Source: an uncultured Gammaproteobacteria bacterium
GTDB lineage: Bacteria > Patescibacteriota > Patescibacteriia > Magasanikbacterales > JBBTQS01
DNA length: 50,638 nucleotides
Direction of reading: 5' to 3'
Assembly: GCA_964627525.1 (NCBI GenBank)
Contig: CAZVIA010000007.1
Span: 1-50,638, forward strand
In this document: piece after piece, positions 6,050 through 25,389 of the stretch
Numbering within the stretch: the first letter of the stretch is position 1
Layout of the letters: each line of letters begins with the position of its first letter
Notes under the pieces: generated by a model
What the model saw: the letters and a program-made list of their open reading frames with translations, nothing else
Told to the model about the DNA's origin: nothing
Databases searched by the model: none
Translations under genes and position numbers: made by a program

Positions 6050-6265
6050 ATGTATAATACAATTGGATTAAAAGAATTTCGGGAAAATGTAGATAAATTT
6101 GCTAAATTGATTGCAAAAGGCAAATCTTATGTTGTAATGCGAAAAAATAAACCTTTATTTAAATTATCTGCTGTAGAAGATGAGTCAGAGTGGGAAACCG
6201 TGATAGATTTTACAAAAATTAAAAAAGGCGGTGTAGACATTGATGATGTGTTGGCAAGACTTTAA
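6050..6265 (+). CDS. Phd/YefM-family antitoxin
   Basis: 71 aa; IGLKEFREN...KGKSYVVMRKNKPLFKL pattern; upstream of a RelE-like gene; candidate promoter TTGACA(6001)-17-TAAACT. Confidence 0.8.
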   Translation: MYNTIGLKEFRENVDKFAKLIAKGKSYVVMRKNKPLFKLSAVEDESEWETVIDFTKIKKGGVDIDDVLARL

Positions 6266-6267
6266 AT

Positions 6268-6522
6268 ATGGATAAGATAGATAAGGTATTAGCCAAATTA
6301 TCTGAAAAAGAGAAAAAACAAATTAAACAACTTTTTCAGAAAATTAAAGCAAATGATTTTTTAGGATTAGATGTGAAAAAGTTGCGCGGTTACAATAATA
6401 TATATAGAATAAAAAAAGGTCAGTTGCGTATTATTTATCAAACAATTGAACTAGATAAAATAAAACTTGTTGGTTTGAGTCGCAGATCTGAAAACATATA
6501 CAAAAAGAAATTAACCCAATGA
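6268..6522 (+). CDS. RelE/ParE-family toxin
   Basis: 84 aa, basic; DVKKLRG...YRIKKGQLRIIY motif. Confidence 0.8.
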   Translation: MDKIDKVLAKLSEKEKKQIKQLFQKIKANDFLGLDVKKLRGYNNIYRIKKGQLRIIYQTIELDKIKLVGLSRRSENIYKKKLTQ

Positions 6523-7619
6523 TTTTCCGAATAAAATTTTTAAAAACCATATACAAAGGATTGGCTAAGCCAATTTTGTTTAGGTTTGATCCAGAAAAAG
6601 TTCATGATCAGGCGATTAAGTCTGGAGAGTTTTTTGGTAAAAACTTTTTGGGTAAAGGTTTTGTAAATCTGTGGTGTAAATATAAAAATAAAAAATTAAC
6701 CCAAATTATAGATGGTGTTGAATATTCAAATCCAGTTGGGTTGGCTGCTGGTTTTGATAAAAATGCTAAAATGCTTAATATTTTGCCGGAAGTTGGTTTT
6801 GGTTTTGTAGAAATCGGTTCAATATCTGCAATGCCTTGTGAAGGAAATTCAAAACCTCGTTTGTGGCGTTTAAAAAAACACAAAGCATTGCGAGTGAATT
6901 ATGGTTTATCAAATGATGGTGCAGAAATAATTTCAAAAAGAATTAAAACAAGTAATTCTGAAATTCCAGTTGGGGTTAGTATTGCAAGAACTAATTGTGT
7001 TGAGACTGGAACTCTTGGCGCAGGCATAAGAGATTATGTAAAATCATACATGCTTTTAAGGGATTGCGGAGCATATCATACTATAAATATTAGCTGTCCA
7101 AATGTTGCAAATAATACTACGTTTTTAGATCCAGAAAATTTGCGGGAACTTTTAAATGCTTTGCAACAAATTAGAATTGCAAAACCAATGTATGTAAAAA
7201 TTTCTCCAGACCTGGATGTAGGTCAGCTAGATAAAATTATTGATCTTGCAATCGAGTTTAAATTAAATGGAATTATTTGTAGTAACTTAACAAAGAAAAA
7301 ATTTGTTACAGATCAGTTTGAGGGAAGTGGGGGAATTAGTGGTTCATTTGTTTCTGACTCTTCAATAAATCAAATTAAATACATCTACAAAAAAACCAAT
7401 GGACAGATCACATTGATTGCATGTGGTGGAGTTCAATCTCCACAAGATGCTTATGATAGAATAAAAGCTGGTGCATCTTTGGTTCAGTTAATTACTGGAA
7501 TGATTTATCATGGACCGCAACTTGTTTCAGAGATAAATCATGGTTTGGTCAGACTGCTTGAACAAGATGGTTTAAATCACATTTCTCAAGCAGTAGGTCT
7601 AAGTATTAGAAATAATTAG
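6519..7619 (+). CDS. pyrD: Dihydroorotate dehydrogenase, class 2 (quinone-type)
   Basis: DPEKVHD N-terminus, NPVGLAAGFDKN, GFGFVEIGS, INISCPN, VKISPD, GGISG, GASLVQL; ATGA overlap with the toxin gene. Confidence 0.92.
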   Translation: MIFRIKFLKTIYKGLAKPILFRFDPEKVHDQAIKSGEFFGKNFLGKGFVNLWCKYKNKKLTQIIDGVEYSNPVGLAAGFDKNAKMLNILPEVGFGFVEIGSISAMPCEGNSKPRLWRLKKHKALRVNYGLSNDGAEIISKRIKTSNSEIPVGVSIARTNCVETGTLGAGIRDYVKSYMLLRDCGAYHTINISCPNVANNTTFLDPENLRELLNALQQIRIAKPMYVKISPDLDVGQLDKIIDLAIEFKLNGIICSNLTKKKFVTDQFEGSGGISGSFVSDSSINQIKYIYKKTNGQITLIACGGVQSPQDAYDRIKAGASLVQLITGMIYHGPQLVSEINHGLVRLLEQDGLNHISQAVGLSIRNN

Positions 7620-7814
7620 ACCTAAAACAGTTCAGATTCATTATTGTGCCCTTTTTGTGCAACACAAGCACCAGATGGAAACGGCTCTTTTGCTGCACAA
7701 ATAAGGCATAATTAGTGGACTTCTTAATCTAGCACAACTCACAGAATTTGTCAAGTCGTTGATTGACAGATTCTTATTTTTTGGCTTATTTAAGCTAAAT
7801 TTAGCACAAAACAC

Positions 7815-7843
7815 TTGACAAAATCACCCAAATATGCTATGAT
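7815..7843 (+). promoter_or_regulatory. Promoter for the candidate ncRNA
   Basis: TTGACA(7815-7820)-17-TATGAT(7838-7843). Confidence 0.75.
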
Positions 7844-7849
7844 GATATC

Positions 7850-8265
7850 TTCTTGTTTAGTGTGCCAAGCATGCAGAATAAGAAGGCTGCAGACTTCGTG
7901 TCTGTGGTGTGCGTTTAGTAAGAGCCCTTGTTTTAAAACCAGTTAGCCCTGGTAAAGAGGGAAAGCCAAAGGCCTGGGAGAGAAGCGATGGGAAGCTGCT
8001 AATCAACTTGAATTAGGAATTCGGGGAGATGCAGCCGTCAAACACCTGACAGAGGTCAGGTAACACTAGCGTGGTGATTAGAAGAAGTTTGGAATAAGCT
8101 ACCAGTGACGCCACGCAAGAGGGTTGGGGCGCCAGAAGACGCCATTGACGGAAGTACAACGATTGAAAAAGGGCTGGTCGCGAGCGGTAAAACGCCCGCG
8201 ACCAGCCCGAACCATTCCTTGTCAACTTCCAAAAATTTAGGTGAGCAATAACTGCCACCTTATTT
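7850..8265 (+). ncRNA. Candidate large structured ncRNA of unrecognised family
   Basis: GC-richer 415-nt stretch with no plus-strand ORF of 60 aa or more, upstream promoter, downstream terminator (8239-8270), and several local and long-range helices. Confidence 0.6.
8171..8208 (-). terminator. Strong hairpin; intrinsic terminator for the minus-strand TrmB gene (lies within the candidate ncRNA)
   Basis: GGGCTGGTCGCG...CGCGACCAGCCC 12-bp stem; followed by TTTTTC on the minus strand. Confidence 0.65.
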
Positions 8266-8270
8266 TTTTT
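8239..8270 (+). terminator. Intrinsic terminator closing the candidate ncRNA
   Basis: AGGTG-A-GCA-ATAAC-TGC-CACCT followed by TATTTTTTTT. Confidence 0.55.
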
Positions 8271-9006
8271 GTTTATTTTTTAAAGCTTCAGTTGCTAGTT
8301 CAAATAAAATTTTCATTGTGTTTGCAAGTTCTTTGTTTTCAATAACTAGTGAGTACATCTTGCCTTCAAAAGTATACATTTCAATTTTATCGCCGTATAT
8401 TCCAATGTCTGTTTTAAAGTTAGAATATTCTTTGGGTAGTTGTAGTCGGTCTGAATCAACTATTTTTTGTGAAGGTGTACCAGAAAATAAACTCTTAATT
8501 TTTTTACCTCCGCGTTTCATTCCCATTCTTAATGGCTTGAGATCTTCTTCAGTTAATACTGTATACATAGCATCTGCATCAGTAATTTCATAAGAATTTT
8601 TATAGTCAGTTTTTGATCTATATTCAATAGCAGCTTTTAACCCAGCCTTACCTTCAAACAATTTTACAATTGGTCGGTCACCACCTATTTGCAAAGCTAA
8701 TTCAGGTGCAAGTTTTTCAAGATCATTAATACGTGATTCTAATTCGTGTGAATAGCGTTTTGCATAAGCTAATAATTTATCAGGATGTTCTGATGCAAAA
8801 AACTTCTTTTTTCCACTTAAACTTGTGGATATTAGTCCACGATCAATCAAAGCATCTAAAGCAGTATAAACAGCTTGTCTTGATAATCTGGTTTTTTTAG
8901 AAAAATCTAAAACAGTTCCAGCGCCATGCTTAAGACCTGTCATGTAAATTTTTATTTCACTTTCTAGCAAGCCAAGTGAGCGTAAAATAGTTTTTATGTC
9001 TTTCAT
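8260..9006 (-). CDS. TrmB-family transcriptional regulator (second paralog)
   Basis: LGLLESEIKIYMTGL...TRLSRQAVYTALDALIDRGLI HTH; FEGKAG; IYGDKI...FELA C-terminus. Confidence 0.85.
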   Translation of the reverse strand: MKDIKTILRSLGLLESEIKIYMTGLKHGAGTVLDFSKKTRLSRQAVYTALDALIDRGLISTSLSGKKKFFASEHPDKLLAYAKRYSHELESRINDLEKLAPELALQIGGDRPIVKLFEGKAGLKAAIEYRSKTDYKNSYEITDADAMYTVLTEEDLKPLRMGMKRGGKKIKSLFSGTPSQKIVDSDRLQLPKEYSNFKTDIGIYGDKIEMYTFEGKMYSLVIENKELANTMKILFELATEALKNKQKK

Positions 9007-9055
9007 ATTTTTTAATGTTACTAATAAAAGGATAACATAATTTTAAAAAAAAGAA

Positions 9056-9083
9056 GAGAGGACACGCGTTAGCATATCCTCTC
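9056..9083 (-). terminator. Intrinsic terminator
   Basis: Minus strand GAGAGGATATGC-TAAC-GCGTGTCCTCTC then TTCTTTTTTTT. Confidence 0.75.
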
Positions 9084-9196
9084 GACGTTGAGTTGGTGTT
9101 GAGCCAAGTGTGTGTCGCCGTTTCGCACTTAGGCAACTCCTGAAAGCGCACGCGTACGCATCAGGTCACTCGCATAACACCGCGCCGGCAGTCGAG

Positions 9197-9598
9197 CTAG
9201 ATGAACACCACGATGTTCAACCAACTTGATAGCGACGCTACCGCTTTAGGCCCGTCCGGAGATCTCCCAACGAAGTAGTTGTACTGCGTCGTCGTCGAAG
9301 CAGTACTTCCAGTTCCTCGTGGGCCAACCTCCGCGCCTGCGCAGATCGGCCAGGGATTCTTCTCGGGCGAGACCATGGTGAGTGCGTTTTTGTTCGCACC
9401 CTCCACTGCCTTGACCTCCTCCCTTGTCAGGATGACGTGATCTGGCGAACCTGTGAACAGGTCACCATCGCGATCCGTCAATTCAACTACGGTTTTCTCC
9501 GAAAGTTGGTCCGCACTTGCTGGTGCAGTACCAAATCCCATCAGCAAAAGCATTGCCGTTGCAAGCAACAGCCGCACCTTTGCTCGAACGAAGTACAT
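9197..9598 (-). CDS. Hypothetical secreted protein (GC-rich ORFan)
   Basis: 133 aa; signal-peptide-like RLLLATAMLLLMGFGTAPASA-D; GAGGT SD; upstream TTGCAC-17-TAGCAT promoter. Confidence 0.6.
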   Translation of the reverse strand: MYFVRAKVRLLLATAMLLLMGFGTAPASADQLSEKTVVELTDRDGDLFTGSPDHVILTREEVKAVEGANKNALTMVSPEKNPWPICAGAEVGPRGTGSTASTTTQYNYFVGRSPDGPKAVASLSSWLNIVVFI

Positions 9599-9831
9599 TC
9601 AGAATACCTCGCAAGTTTAGAACACCCATCAGCACCGGTGTGGTTAGATAATCCAACCACTGACATGTACTATGCTATCATATACATAAAAAAAGTGCAA
9701 GGCTTTTGAGTTTGTGCACAGAATAGTCTATAAAATAAGCTGTTTTGTATAATTTAGAAAAAGTTGACCGCCCATCGTGTGATGAGCGGTCAGTTGAGGA
9801 GGAGGGTGGTGGGTTGTGGGTCGACTTACCC

Positions 9832-10029
9832 TTATGTTCGTTGTTTTGCAAACATGAGTCGCAATGATTTTGGCATTGCGCGACAAGTGCTACACATTGC
9901 TGGCGCGTTCCCTCTGCGCGCTATTTTTGTGCAGATCTTTCCACATGCGCATACGGCGACGGACGCACCAATGGAAGAGCCTGGTGGCAACCGTCTGGCT
10001 TGCAGGTTTTTTGGCAAAACCGACCTCAA
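9832..10029 (-). CDS. Possible small Zn-ribbon protein (TTG start, uncertain)
   Basis: 65 aa with CACGKIC...CSTC; followed by hairpin GACCGCTCATC-ACAC-GATGGGCGGTC plus U-tract near 9765-9790; no SD. Confidence 0.35.
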   Translation of the reverse strand: MRSVLPKNLQARRLPPGSSIGASVAVCACGKICTKIARRGNAPAMCSTCRAMPKSLRLMFAKQRT

Positions 10030-10118
10030 TGTCGTTATTAGGGGTGACCCAGTTTAAATATACCATAAAATTAATTTTTTTGATAAAATAAGGTTATAAG
10101 TTTTTAAAAAATAAAAAT

Positions 10119-10727: not shown

Positions 10728-11033
10728 ATGAAAAAGTTTCTAGCGCTGTTGATCTTGGTTCTTGTGGCACTGACAAGTTCAGGTTGTCGTGACAATGAGA
10801 AGGTCAAGGCATCTGACTTCGAGATGACGCTGGAACAAGAGTTGATGCTCAAGATCCAGAATGGTCCGTGCATAAAGTGGTGTCGGCAAAAAAGCACTGG
10901 CGCCATTGTGATGGGTAAGCTCGAGCCTTACCATCAGCAAGCGTTGCTGCTAGACGGATCTGAGGTTCAAAAGATGGCAGAGGGCAGTCTTTGTCCTGAG
11001 CCAGATAACAGTCTGGATTATTGCATGGACTAA
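10728..11033 (+). CDS. Putative lipoprotein (ORFan)
   Basis: 101 aa; MKK + hydrophobic core + lipobox-like TSSG-C; SD GGGGGAG. Confidence 0.7.
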   Translation: MKKFLALLILVLVALTSSGCRDNEKVKASDFEMTLEQELMLKIQNGPCIKWCRQKSTGAIVMGKLEPYHQQALLLDGSEVQKMAEGSLCPEPDNSLDYCMD

Positions 11034-11162
11034 CCCTGCTTGGTTTGATTGAACACGAGTCGTGATTAACTTCGCGACTTTTGTGTTTATTAAGGAATGT
11101 TTTGGTTTTAAATTAAACGAGTTTGACATTTTTTTCAATATATATTATTATGCAGAACATAT

Positions 11163-24210: not shown

Positions 24211-25389
24211 ATGTTTAAGTTCCGCTCGGTACTTACATTGGTGATATTACTAGTAGTCATGCTTGGAGCTATGGCTGCTGGTTTTGTTTATAAACAAATT
24301 GTTGGCGAGCCGATTGTTGATGTACAAAAAGTTGAAGAGTTTTTTAATATTGATGAGGGTGAAAAATTTGTGCGAACATTGGATGGGGTTTTTGTTAAGC
24401 ATGAGGAAGAAGTTCAGCCTGTTGTTACAGCCATAATGATAGATAATCATCCAGAAGCAAGACCTTCTATTGGGTTGGCTCAAGCATCTGTTGTTTATGA
24501 AGTTCCTGTCGAAGGAAGGTTCACAAGGTTTTTGGCTTTATATGCTTTGCCAGTTGAAATTTTTGGAGAGGATTTTGAGGAAAATAAAAACCCTACTTCA
24601 ACACCTGTTGTGGTAGTGACCTCAACTTCTTATACAGGTTCAATTGGTCCAGTTAGAAGTGCTCGTCCATATTTTTTGGATATTGCAGGGGAATATAATG
24701 CTATTTATACTCATGTTGGTGGTTCGCCAGTTGCACTTTCTCAAGTAAGATCTGGGAATATAAATAATTTAAATGAATTTTTTAAAGGACATTTATTTTG
24801 GCGTGCGCAAAATCGTTGGGCACCGCATAATGTTTTGACAACATTAGAAAAAATTGAAAAAGGGCGGCTGCAGTATTTTGATGATTTAGAAAAAAGTAAT
24901 TTTGAATCTTGGAAATGGGTTGATGAGAAAAAGTCTGAAATAAAAGATTGTGAGATTTGTTTGCCGTTTATAAGTATTGATTGGAAAGATAAAAGCAATT
25001 ATATTTTGTGGGAGTTTGATTTTGAAAATAAAAAATACGATCGTTTTCGGGATGGGGAGTTACATACTGATGTGGGTGGTGCTGGAATTTATGCAGACAC
25101 AATTGTTGTGCAGTATGTAAAGTCGCATGTGATTGATAATGTTGGTAGGTTGGATATTGATATTGTTGGTGAAGGTGAGGTTGAAATTTATCACGGTGGT
25201 AATGATCCAGCAAAAGGTATTTGGAAAAAAGATGGGCGTTATGAACGCACAAAGTTTTTTGTAGCAGATGAAAATGGTGAGGCTGATGAAGATCGAGAAA
25301 TTTATTTAAGGCGTGGGAAAGTTTGGGTTGAGGTTGTGCCAGAAGGTGTGAAAGTGGATGGGTTTTTTTCAAAAGATGGGGAAGAGTAA
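24211..25389 (+). CDS. DUF3048-family exported protein
   Basis: IMIDNHPEARPSIGL, VYEVPVEGRFTRFLA, GPVRSARPY, RWAPHNV, RGKVWVEVVP; ATG 24211 preferred. Confidence 0.85.
   Translation: MFKFRSVLTLVILLVVMLGAMAAGFVYKQIVGEPIVDVQKVEEFFNIDEGEKFVRTLDGVFVKHEEEVQPVVTAIMIDNHPEARPSIGLAQASVVYEVPVEGRFTRFLALYALPVEIFGEDFEENKNPTSTPVVVVTSTSYTGSIGPVRSARPYFLDIAGEYNAIYTHVGGSPVALSQVRSGNINNLNEFFKGHLFWRAQNRWAPHNVLTTLEKIEKGRLQYFDDLEKSNFESWKWVDEKKSEIKDCEICLPFISIDWKDKSNYILWEFDFENKKYDRFRDGELHTDVGGAGIYADTIVVQYVKSHVIDNVGRLDIDIVGEGEVEIYHGGNDPAKGIWKKDGRYERTKFFVADENGEADEDREIYLRRGKVWVEVVPEGVKVDGFFSKDGEE

What the first reader, a model, noticed from the sequence alone, without database searches (positions are those of the whole stretch)
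7815..8270. Unrecognised ~415-nt structured RNA with its own promoter and terminator
Seen: near-consensus promoter (TTGACA-17-TATGAT), then a GC-richer stretch with no long plus-strand ORF, then a hairpin plus U-tract terminator at 8239-8270. Helices visible by eye: GGCTGCA 7885-7891 / TGCAGCC 8030-8036; CCGTCAA 8035-8041 / TTGACGG 8145-8151; ACCTGAC-AGAG-GTCAGGT 8044-8061; GCGTGGTG 8069-8076 / CGCCACGC 8109-8116; CTAAT..ATTAG ~7999-8016; and a 38-nt hairpin at 8171-8208. The longest ORF I found is a 15-codon one at 7871 (MQNKKAADFVSVVCV, double stop). It lacks the tRNA-like ends of tmRNA and the conserved P4 strands of RNase P RNA, and no downstream sense gene exists for a riboswitch to control. 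Its 3' part is antisense to the 3' UTR of the convergent TrmB gene. Inference: a stand-alone large ncRNA, possibly a new class.
Basis: partly seen in the sequence, partly recalled or inferred. Interest (0 to 1): 0.78.

Follow-up and report, generated by a model that had tools for sequence, protein, structure and literature searches.

The report
Mini-ORF RNA beside a TrmB regulator
This is a real, strongly promoted, hairpin-rich ~420-nt transcript in no known RNA family; its positional counterparts in related Patescibacteria conserve no fold, only perfect ribosome-binding sites followed by 3-6-codon ORFs (often Met-x-Gly-Gly), so it looks like a new translated-mini-ORF regulatory RNA rather than a new large ribozyme-like RNA.

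Summary
A near-consensus extended -10 promoter (7815-7843) is followed by a GC-rich (0.48 vs 0.35), non-periodic, strongly folding stretch and a hairpin plus U8 terminator (8239-8270).

It matches no Rfam family. It is not RNase P RNA or tmRNA, because both lie elsewhere in the genome.

No relative shares detectable sequence with it. However, wherever the ortholog of the convergent TrmB-like gene occurs (32 of 401 sampled genomes of the class), a convergent promoter-to-terminator unit of 200-700 nt sits tail-to-tail with it.

The body of that unit turns over completely, even within a genus. What persists is a strong Shine-Dalgarno site, a 5-6 nt spacer, ATG, 2-7 codons and a stop. Across 48 loci there are 58 such mini-ORFs on the RNA strand, 0 on the other strand and 2.6 expected by chance. 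In one large clade the peptides read M-x-G-G.

The window copy keeps one such ORF (MGSC, 7988-8002) with a weaker SD. Its start is sequestered in a stem. A second module (8117-8126) is degenerate.

Function is unproven. My best guess is a translation-gated regulatory transcript linked to the TrmB gene. The CsrA-sponge, TrmB-5'-pairing and stop-to-hairpin attenuator ideas were tested and found no support.

The parts
7726..7754 (-). Divergent minus-strand promoter-like site (TTGACA-17-TAGATT, TG-extended) with no gene behind it. Its -35 is the 'TGTCAAGT' motif seen upstream of the RNA in many relatives.
   Evidence: relatives
7784..7805 (.). Two overlapping palindromes, GCTTATTTAAGC and GCTAAATTTAGC, 9 nt upstream of the -35. 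This is a genome-wide promoter-upstream element, not specific to this RNA.
   Evidence: 23 copies, 19 intergenic; also precede rpoB, rplJ and a DksA-like gene
7815..7843 (+). Sigma-70 promoter: TTGACA, 17 nt, TG-n-TATGAT. The predicted start is about 7848-7851.
   Evidence: 11 of 12 positions, TG present; the same architecture stands at the homologous position in more than 20 relatives
7850..8270 (+). Predicted ~420-nt transcript: GC 0.48, non-periodic, strongly structured.
7850..7905 (+). Two 5' hairpins: 7850-7858/7876-7884 with inner 7860-7865/7869-7874, and 7889-7894/7900-7905.
   Evidence: pair probabilities 0.90-0.99
7925..7992 (+). Domain in which the pyrimidine strand CCCUUGUUUU (7925-7934) pairs with the spacer, AUG and first Gly codon (7982-7992). 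The SD core GAGA (7978-7981) stays single-stranded.
   Evidence: P 0.77-0.99
7976..7982 (+). Shine-Dalgarno-like GGGAGAG. It is weaker than the AGGAGG of most relatives but similar to the GAGGGAGA of same-family genome G003.
7988..8002 (+). Mini-ORF ATG GGA AGC TGC TAA (M-G-S-C-stop), of the M-G-x-x subtype also seen in G003 (MGNA), G005 (MGCG) and G009 (MGNA, MGAG).
   Evidence: chance of such an ORF in shuffles of this RNA is 3% (loose definition) or 0.16% (strict)
7995..8116 (+). Central hairpins: 7995-7999/8031-8035 enclosing 8007-8014/8018-8025; 8044-8050/8055-8061; 8069-8076/8109-8116 enclosing 8086-8091/8095-8100.
8117..8126 (+). Degenerate second module, AAGAGGG directly abutting TTG. 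It corresponds by eye to the second SD/mini-ORF of G001 (AAGGGGGAAACGATGGGAGGCGG), but the spacer and ATG are lost.
   Evidence: alignment by eye, not statistically significant
8171..8208 (.). 16-bp GC-rich hairpin. On the minus strand it is followed by a T-run, so it is the likely terminator of the TrmB mRNA. On the plus strand it is embedded in the 8150-8159/8219-8230 stem.
8239..8270 (.). Terminator of the RNA: an interrupted 8-bp stem followed by U8. It overlaps the TrmB stop codon (8260-8262) and is T-flanked on both strands, so it is probably bidirectional.
8260..9006 (-). Convergent TrmB-family wHTH regulator gene (248 aa). It is the syntenic anchor of the RNA family. No SD stands before its ATG.
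   Evidence: orthologs

Best explanation
SHOWN. The element is an autonomous, strongly promoted, non-protein-coding, hairpin-dense plus-strand unit of about 420 nt. It ends at a terminator shared with the convergent TrmB-like gene. It belongs to no curated RNA family.

SHOWN in relatives. Wherever the ortholog of this TrmB gene occurs, across at least 12 families of the same Patescibacteria class, a convergent promoter-to-terminator unit lies tail-to-tail with it. The body of that unit evolves freely. Its invariant features are 1-3 near-perfect ribosome-binding sites at optimal spacing, each followed by an ATG and a 2-7-codon ORF. In a large clade these ORFs read M-x-G-G, and in the window's own family M-G-x-x.

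INFERRED. The window RNA is the local, somewhat degenerate member of this family. It has one mini-ORF (MGSC, 7988-8002) with a weaker SD, and its second module is decayed.

INFERRED mechanism. The RNA works through being translated, not through a conserved tertiary fold or through the peptide. A ribosome loads at the mini-ORF. Access is gated by the 7925-7934/7982-7992 stem here, and by GGAGG/CCUCC/GGAGG alternative pairings in relatives. The ribosome terminates after about 4 codons, roughly 19 nt from the SD. This remodels or stabilises the hairpin-rich transcript.

The 3' 40-105 nt of the transcript (8165-8270) are complementary to the TrmB 3' UTR and terminators. Ribosome occupancy would therefore couple the cell's translational status to the fate of the regulator's mRNA, or to read-through into it.
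For: - Autonomy and structure.
- Not a known family. RNase P RNA lies at C8 and tmRNA at C5.
- Synteny: TrmB orthologs in G001, G003, G005, G009 and G011 each have a convergent promoter plus GC-rich unit plus terminator. The same holds in 22 of 26 loci from genome contigs, in Logan contigs, and class-wide.
- A motif search that ignored TrmB hit 3 of 240 genomes. The two examined lie beside a TrmB ortholog; the third matches L056's second mini-ORF exactly, but its context was not looked at.
- Strand and shuffle test: 58 strong-SD mini-ORFs on the RNA strand in 39 of 48 loci, 0 on the opposite strand, 2.6 expected.
- Translation signature: the SD-ATG spacer is 5-6 nt in 35 of 51 cases and 4 sense codons is the modal length. 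All three stop codons are used (TAG 22, TAA 13, TGA 10). Gly is at residue 3 in 37 of 45 and at residue 4 in 34 of 45, with free wobble. Close pairs differ by synonymous Gly changes, stop-codon swaps and an in-frame 3-nt indel (L047 vs L055, L046 vs L049).
- Window copy: the SD plus MGSC ORF is rare by chance, and its start is sequestered.
- 3' overlap with the TrmB terminators.
Against: - The window RNA has no significant sequence similarity to any relative's RNA (z<=0.4). Membership therefore rests on position, orientation, promoter type and one short ORF.
- Its SD is weak, and it lacks Gly-Gly.
- The mechanism has no direct support. Distance from stop codon to the next stable helix is no shorter than from random positions in the same RNAs (p=0.46).
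- Several relatives have a second terminator between the RNA and TrmB, so antisense overlap is not universal.
- Cognate RNA/TrmB-5' pairing is no better than non-cognate (p=0.43).
Confidence: 0.4

Rival explanations
1. One reading: a stand-alone, trans-acting large structured ncRNA of a new class, whose function resides in a specific conserved fold in the way of OLE, ROOL or raiA.
For: - Very negative folding z-scores with a strand preference.
- A GC-rich island in an AT-rich genome.
- A strong promoter.
- No Rfam match.
Against: - Positional homologs vary from 200 to 700 nt and share no alignable body, even within one genus.
- Nothing but the SD/mini-ORF modules, plus a clade-specific pseudoknot, is conserved.
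- Large structured RNAs normally show conserved cores.
Confidence: 0.15
2. In this genome the unit is a decaying or neutral copy. The family is functional in relatives, but the window copy has lost its canonical modules and is on its way to being a relic.
For: - The SD is weaker (GGGAGAG).
- Gly-Gly is replaced by Ser-Cys.
- The second module has lost its spacer and ATG.
- The copy fails the strict SD definition used.
Against: - The promoter is near-perfect and carries the genome's general upstream element.
- The structure z-score remains strong.
- Same-family genomes G003 and G005 also have a single M-G-x-x ORF with a GGGAG-type SD, which suggests a lineage variant rather than decay.
Confidence: 0.15
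3. A ribosome-parking or sponge RNA. The near-perfect SD plus an ORF of 5 codons or fewer lets the ribosome terminate while still tethered by the SD:anti-SD helix, so the abundant RNA holds or cycles ribosomes. This would act as a translation-capacity buffer or sensor.
For: - SD to stop is 18.6 +/- 2.8 nt, and 4 sense codons is the modal length.
- There are 1-3 modules per RNA, driven by a strong promoter.
- Peptide identity is not conserved outside one clade.
Against: - SDs are predicted to be mostly paired, not exposed (median P unpaired 0.012).
- Spacer length and ORF length show no compensating correlation (r=-0.14).
- This does not explain the obligatory TrmB linkage.
Confidence: 0.1
4. 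The mini-ORFs are genes: the tetrapeptides (fMet-x-Gly-Gly and similar) are the functional product.
For: Peptide-level conservation of Gly-Gly with free wobble and in-frame indels in one clade.
Against: - Elsewhere in the class the peptides are unrelated (MSL, MAN, MIN, MHS, MCTG, MG).
- The window encodes MGSC.
- There are no adjacent modification or export genes.
- A 420-nt structured RNA is unnecessary to make a tetrapeptide.
Confidence: 0.07
5. The 3' structures belong to the other strand: 8165-8270 is simply the TrmB 3' UTR with two terminators, and the plus-strand RNA has no function beyond insulating the convergent genes.
For: - The minus-strand terminator call at 8208..8171.
- The 8239-8262 hairpin is T-flanked on both strands.
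Against: This explains only the last ~100 nt. It does not account for the promoter, the 300-nt structured body or the conserved mini-ORFs.
Confidence: 0.05

Closest known systems
Leader-peptide transcription attenuators (trpL, pheL, hisL, pyrL) and very short antibiotic-sensing leader ORFs (ermCL, cat/cmlA leaders, 2-5-codon leaders of ARE-ABCF genes)
   Same: - A short ORF with its own strong RBS, embedded in alternative hairpins and followed by an intrinsic terminator.
- Tandem codons for one amino acid (Gly-Gly) in many members.
- SD / anti-SD / SD triplets in relatives.
   Different: - There is no downstream gene on the same strand. The unit ends tail-to-tail with a convergent regulator gene.
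- The ORFs have only 2-7 codons.
- There are up to three modules per RNA.
- The body reaches 700 nt.
- Stop-to-terminator proximity is not statistically special.
GadY-type cis-antisense sRNAs, convergent with and overlapping the 3' end of a transcription-factor mRNA (knowledge from the literature, not tested here)
   Same: It is a small, independently promoted RNA encoded opposite the 3' end of a regulator gene. The predicted overlap with the TrmB 3' UTR is 40-105 nt in the window.
   Different: - The overlap is not conserved in relatives that carry two separate terminators.
- GadY has no translated mini-ORFs.
- There is no evidence of duplex processing.
Minigenes (lambda bar, 23S rRNA E-peptide, axe-txe minigene; PMC8708949 appeared in a search listing but was not read)
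   Same: An SD plus a 2-5-codon ORF whose effect comes from its translation rather than from a folded protein.
   Different: Those are single incidental or phage/operon-internal elements. Here the mini-ORFs are the conserved core of a stand-alone, syntenic, class-wide transcript.
Dual-function sRNAs (SgrS/SgrT, RNAIII/hld, SR1/SR1P)
   Same: A structured regulatory RNA that also carries a translated small ORF.
   Different: Their ORFs encode peptides of 26-43 aa with their own activity. Here the ORFs are 2-7 codons with variable sequence.
CsrB/RsmZ protein-sponge RNAs
   Same: Repeated CA-A-GGA-GG-like motifs that resemble the CsrA/RsmE consensus.
   Different: CsrA is absent from this genome and from the RNA-bearing relatives. 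The conserved ATG and in-frame stop are not explained by protein binding.

Membership tests
Bacterial RNase P RNA (RF00010/RF00011) | Covariance-model match including the P4 strands and overall core | tested here: not met
   There is no hit even at E<=10 on 7700-8400. A bona fide copy (129.9 bits) lies at C8:7924-8395.
tmRNA (RF00023) | tRNA-like ends and tag ORF, with a CM or ARAGORN match | tested here: not met
   ARAGORN finds none in the window, and there is no CM hit. The genome's tmRNA is at about C5:27218-27598 (113.7 bits).
Any other Rfam 15 family (6S, SRP, riboswitches, OLE, ROOL, GOLLD, raiA, HEARO and others) | CM match at or near the gathering score | tested here: not met
   The window was scanned at gathering threshold and the region at E<=10 (only chance snoRNA/miRNA hits). 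Twenty relatives' loci gave nothing on the RNA.
Riboswitch / cis-regulatory 5' leader | A regulated gene downstream on the same strand | tested here: not met
   The next gene (8260-9006) is convergent. The same holds in all relatives.
Leader-peptide attenuator | Short ORF with a functional-looking RBS | tested here: met
   In the window, GGGAGAG is followed by 5 nt and then ATG GGA AGC TGC TAA. In relatives the SD is AGGAGG, followed by a 5-6 nt spacer and the ATG.
Leader-peptide attenuator | Tandem regulatory codons | tested here: inconclusive
   Gly-Gly occurs in 31 of 45 relatives' ORFs. It is absent in the window (MGSC) and in other families of the class.
Leader-peptide attenuator | Ribosome position decides between terminator and antiterminator (stop codon close to the hairpin) | tested here: inconclusive
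   The median stop-to-helix distance is 6 nt, but random positions give the same value (p=0.46).
TrmB-convergent mini-ORF RNA (family defined here) | Tail-to-tail with the ortholog of this TrmB-family gene, on the opposite strand | tested here: met
TrmB-convergent mini-ORF RNA (family defined here) | Own sigma-70 promoter with a TG-extended -10, and an intrinsic terminator at the TrmB stop | tested here: met
   relatives
TrmB-convergent mini-ORF RNA (family defined here) | At least one strong-SD (5-mer or longer of AAGGAGGT) mini-ORF of 2-7 codons | tested here: inconclusive
   The window has a 4-codon ORF, but only a GGAG 4-mer SD. It passes the looser definitions but would not match the strict 5-mer SD pattern, which was not run on the window.
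TrmB-convergent mini-ORF RNA (family defined here) | Detectable sequence or structure homology to other members | tested here: not met
   BLASTN finds nothing in 60 relatives. Smith-Waterman z<=0.4 against six relatives' RNAs.
CsrB/RsmZ-type sponge | The cognate CsrA/RsmA protein is encoded in the genome | tested here: not met
   PF02599 is absent from G000, G001, G003, G005, G009 and G011.
GadY-type 3'-overlapping antisense RNA | Transcripts of both strands overlap at their 3' ends | not testable with these tools
   Overlap is predicted from terminator positions only.

The most novel reading that the evidence does not exclude
A previously undescribed class of stand-alone 'translated mini-ORF' RNAs in Patescibacteria. 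Perfect SD sites followed by ~4-codon ORFs (fMet-x-Gly-Gly) would make the abundant, hairpin-rich transcript a ribosome-occupancy sensor or ribosome-parking device. It would be co-inherited with one TrmB-family regulator and act as the post-transcriptional arm of that regulator, in organisms that lack CsrA (absent here) and perhaps other classic RNA-binding regulators.
Probability: 0.12. Interest if true: 0.85.

Novelty: new variant of a known kind. Interest (0 to 1): 0.55.

Why it matters
Patescibacteria (CPR) have tiny genomes, few regulators and almost no characterised regulatory RNAs. This unit has three notable properties:
- It is conserved in position across many families of a class.
- It is driven by one of the strongest promoter types in the genome.
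- Its only conserved content is ribosome-binding sites with 3-6-codon ORFs.

That combination points to a regulatory principle based on translation itself, not on RNA fold or peptide, which has not been catalogued for stand-alone bacterial RNAs.

It also gives a concrete and easily testable system. Toeprinting and reporter fusions can be done in laboratory E. coli or B. subtilis, asking what very short ORFs with perfect SDs do.

For genome scanning, it is a caution. A GC-rich, strongly folding intergenic island is not necessarily a conserved-fold ncRNA, and synteny-anchored comparison can reveal the real conserved signal when sequence searches find nothing.

Tried and rejected
1. Divergent RNase P RNA or tmRNA. 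Rejected: both are found elsewhere in the genome.
2. Any Rfam family. Rejected.
3. Sequence homologs. BLASTN found none in the genome's own contigs or in 60 relatives. Only 2 distant loci turned up in the metagenome collection. Other assemblies of the same organism are 100% identical, so there is no variation to exploit.
4. Decayed protein gene. There is no codon periodicity and no Pfam hit for the 81-aa minus-strand ORF.
5. CsrA sponge. CsrA is absent.
6. Trans pairing with the TrmB translation-initiation region. Cognate pairs are no better than non-cognate (mean z 0.04, p=0.43).
7. Attenuator geometry, with the stop codon abutting a hairpin. This is not distinguishable from random positions in these hairpin-dense RNAs.
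8. Exposed-SD 'landing pad'. SDs are predicted to be mostly paired.
9. The upstream palindrome as a TrmB operator specific to this RNA. It is instead a genome-wide promoter-upstream element. The 'TGTCAAGT' motif is the -35 of a divergent promoter.
10. Pseudoknot after the second mini-ORF. It is convincing in only four independent relatives (L044, L053, L059, L118), each with a different S1 sequence. It is absent in the window.
11. A MAFFT alignment of four RNAs was uninformative.
12. Three literature searches found no prior description.
13. Earlier-scan notes held nothing relevant.
Full report
**1. What is in the window.**
- The promoter is TTGACA (7815-7820), 17 nt, TATGAT (7838-7843), with TG at 7835-7836. 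It matches 11 of 12 positions and is the best site in 7000-9200.
- From about 7850 to 8270 the GC content rises to 0.45-0.52, in a contig of 0.35.
- The longest plus-strand ORFs are 35-48 aa without ribosome-binding sites.
- Nucleotide composition shows no three-base periodicity (chi2 p=0.65). pyrD, the TrmB gene and two small GC-rich secreted-protein genes nearby give p<=0.003.
- The plus strand folds to -160.8 kcal/mol (z=-6.3).
- Without the two 3' hairpins the body still gives z=-3.4.
- The reverse complement folds 23 kcal/mol worse.
- The terminator is an interrupted 8-bp stem (8239-8260) followed by U8.
- On the minus strand the 16-bp hairpin 8171-8208 is followed by a T-run and was called as a minus-strand terminator. 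It is most simply the terminator of the convergent gene.

**2. What it is not.**
- Rfam 15 gives only three tRNAs in the window at gathering threshold. At E<=10 the region gives only chance snoRNA/miRNA matches.
- The genome is 812 kb in 17 contigs and 96.5% complete, which is Patescibacteria-like. It has a good RNase P RNA at C8:7924-8395 and a tmRNA at C5.
- ARAGORN finds no tmRNA in the window.
- CsrA is absent.
- There is no sense-strand gene downstream. The next gene (8260-9006, minus strand) encodes a TrmB-family winged-helix protein.

**3. Relatives: sequence searches fail, synteny succeeds.**
- BLASTN of the RNA finds nothing in 60 related genomes, including the same genus.
- Orthologs of the TrmB gene (49-65% identity) in G001, G003, G005, G009 and G011 each have three things immediately 3' of the gene on the opposite strand: a TTGACA/TG-extended -10 promoter, a GC-rich non-coding stretch and a terminator.
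- The pattern repeats in 22 of 26 orthologous loci fetched from one-genome-per-species contigs. Their records are titled Uhrbacteria, Magasanikbacteria and Patescibacteria group, plus some evidently mislabelled MAGs.
- It repeats again in Logan contigs and in an even sample of the class. There the ortholog occurs in 32 of 401 genomes spanning at least 12 families.
- Unit length varies from about 200 to 700 nt.
- The bodies cannot be aligned. None is significantly similar to the window RNA. G003 and G005, from one genus, are almost entirely different.

**4. What is conserved.** Each unit carries 1-3 modules of the form AGGAGG, spacer, ATG, a few codons, stop.
- In the 600 nt 3' of TrmB across 48 loci there are 58 such mini-ORFs on the RNA strand, in 39 loci. 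There are none on the other strand, and 2.6 are expected from dinucleotide shuffles.
- The SD-to-ATG spacer is 5-6 nt in 35 of 51 modules. Four sense codons is the mode (28 of 51). SD to stop is 18.6 +/- 2.8 nt.
- In the best-sampled clade the peptides are M-x-G-G(-x), such as MFGG, MNGG, MQGGG, MIGGS and MVGG. Gly is at residue 3 in 37 of 45 and at residue 4 in 34 of 45. All four Gly codons and all three stop codons are used.
- Closely related pairs differ by synonymous Gly changes, stop-codon swaps and an in-frame codon insertion (L047/L055, L046/L049). These are the marks of translation.
- Elsewhere in the class the mini-ORFs persist, but the peptides differ (MSL, MAN, MIN, MHS, MCTG, MG). 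This argues that the act of translation matters more than the peptide.
- A search for the strict motif, run without reference to TrmB, hit 3 of 240 genomes of the order. Two of the three were examined and lie beside a TrmB ortholog; the third was not.
- Many units also show a GGAGG / CCUCC / GGAGG arrangement, or an upstream SD-ATG that is often in frame with the mini-ORF.
- Four independent members have an H-type pseudoknot directly after the second stop codon, with four different complementary S1 sequences.
- Some units carry variable small ORFs, for example a ~130-aa Cys-rich ORF joined to the mini-ORF by TGATG in L047 and L055.

**5. The window copy in that light.**
- It has GGGAGAG (7976-7982), 5 nt, then ATG GGA AGC TGC TAA (7988-8002), which reads MGSC.
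- The M-G-x-x pattern and a GGGAG-type SD recur in its own family (G003 MGNA, G005 MGCG) and in G009 (MGNA, MGAG).
- Such an ORF arises in 3% (loose definition) or 0.16% (strict, post hoc) of shuffles of this RNA. Genome-wide the loose pattern occurs about once per 45 kb of strand.
- The spacer, AUG and first Gly codon pair with CCCUUGUUUU (7925-7934) at P of about 0.8-0.99. This is analogous to the sequestered starts in relatives.
- A second purine block (AAGAGGG-TTG, 8117-8126) resembles G001's second module by eye but lacks the spacer and ATG.
- The window RNA is therefore best read as a divergent member. That reading rests on position and architecture, not on measurable homology.

**6. Mechanism: tests made.**

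| Idea tested | Result |
|---|---|
| Stop-codon-to-helix distance is special | Not different from random positions (p=0.46) |
| SDs are preferentially exposed | No |
| The RNA pairs with its cognate TrmB translation-initiation region | No better than with non-cognate ones (p=0.43) |
| CsrA-type sponging | Excluded |
| The palindrome GCTAAATTTAGC upstream of the -35 is specific to this RNA | No: it is a genome-wide element in front of strong promoters (rpoB, rplJ, a DksA-like gene) |

The last result suggests high expression, not a specific operator.

What remains is the following picture. The unit is strictly co-located with one regulator gene. It shares terminators with that gene, with a predicted 40-105-nt 3' overlap in the window. 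Its conserved content is ribosome loading and termination within about 19 nt of the SD.

My best guess is that ribosome occupancy gates the folding, stability or termination of this transcript, and through the shared 3' region the fate of the TrmB mRNA. I put confidence in that mechanism at about 0.25, and about 0.4 for the overall statement including family assignment.

A ribosome-parking or sensor RNA is the most novel reading that the evidence does not exclude.

**7. Limits.**
- No close relatives exist in the collections to test covariation of the window's own helices.
- The pseudoknot evidence rests on four sequences.
- Some loci in the counts come from the same genomes fetched twice (for example L043=L038 and L054=L041). 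The exact numbers are therefore slightly inflated, although the strand asymmetry (58 vs 0) is not affected.

Noticed in passing
window 7784-7805; genome G000 C1:10412, 37931, 57964, 79042; C4:18798, 60526, 61215; C6:758; C10:14137; C13:9484; C14:3260 and others: The palindrome (TTTTTTG)GCTAAATTTAGC recurs 23 times in the 812-kb genome, 19 of them intergenic. It usually lies 9-40 nt upstream of strong TTGACA/TG-extended -10 promoters, including those of rpoB, rplJ and a DksA/TraR-like gene. It is a candidate site for a global transcription factor, or a specialised UP element.
   Followed up: partly
window 7726-7754 (minus strand): A strong divergent promoter-like site (TTGACA-17-TAGATT, TG-extended) points into the 3' end of pyrD with no ORF behind it. 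An equivalent divergent -35 (ACTTGACA) lies upstream of the RNA in many relatives.
   Followed up: partly
window 9197-9598 (-) and 10729-11034 (+): Two small genes for signal-peptide or lipoprotein-type proteins have 50-57% GC in a 35% GC genome, with clear codon periodicity. In this genome GC-rich islands are therefore not only RNAs.
   Followed up: partly
window 9747-10074: A further GC-rich island (0.48) has weak periodicity (p=0.023), a 97-codon TTG ORF, a G-rich tract (GAGGAGGAGGGTGGTGGG) and terminator-like hairpins on both strands. It remains unexplained.
   Followed up: partly
genome G000 C1:132039-132670, C6:5807-6774, C14:2869-3272: Three more GC-rich stretches of 400-970 nt lie outside long ORFs and have no Rfam match at E<=0.01. 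They are candidates for further unknown RNAs or small GC-rich genes.
   Followed up: partly
genome G000 C4:~24860-24995 (L017 311-446, minus): A sub-threshold match to the Rfam RT-16 RNA (38 bits against a gathering score of 50; E=0.006).
   Followed up: no
window 6050-6522: A weak Phd/YefM-type antitoxin match (E=0.0012, 19 bits against Pfam's cutoff of 29.8) on the 71-aa ORF, followed at a 2-nt gap by an 84-aa ORF with no Pfam match. The arrangement looks like a type II toxin-antitoxin pair just upstream of pyrD.
   Followed up: partly
window 9007-9050 (minus strand, upstream of the TrmB ATG at 9006): The TrmB-like gene has no Shine-Dalgarno sequence (…TAACATTAAAAAATATG). Only about 40 nt separate it from the upstream gene's terminator. 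Its mRNA may be leaderless or made by read-through.
   Followed up: no
L116 and L117, about 100 nt upstream of the RNA promoter: An inverted pair of perfect DnaA-box-like sequences (ATATCCACAG…CTGTGGATAA) lies next to the unit in two relatives. TTATCCACA-like boxes also occur near the promoter in L054 and L060.
   Followed up: no
L047 and L055 (RNA-sense strand, upstream of the first mini-ORF): A ~130-aa Cys-rich ORF with a strong SD ends in TGATG, overlapping the start of the mini-ORF in the manner of translational coupling. L049 and L059 carry a small ORF starting MIC(I/V)V between the two mini-ORFs. The unit can evidently host variable small genes.
   Followed up: no
L068, L069, L070, L072, L104 (3' of more distant TrmB paralogs): A nearly identical promoter, TTGACAAAATGGnCAAAATATGGTATTGT, recurs in five loci from different genomes. 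What it drives was not examined.
   Followed up: no
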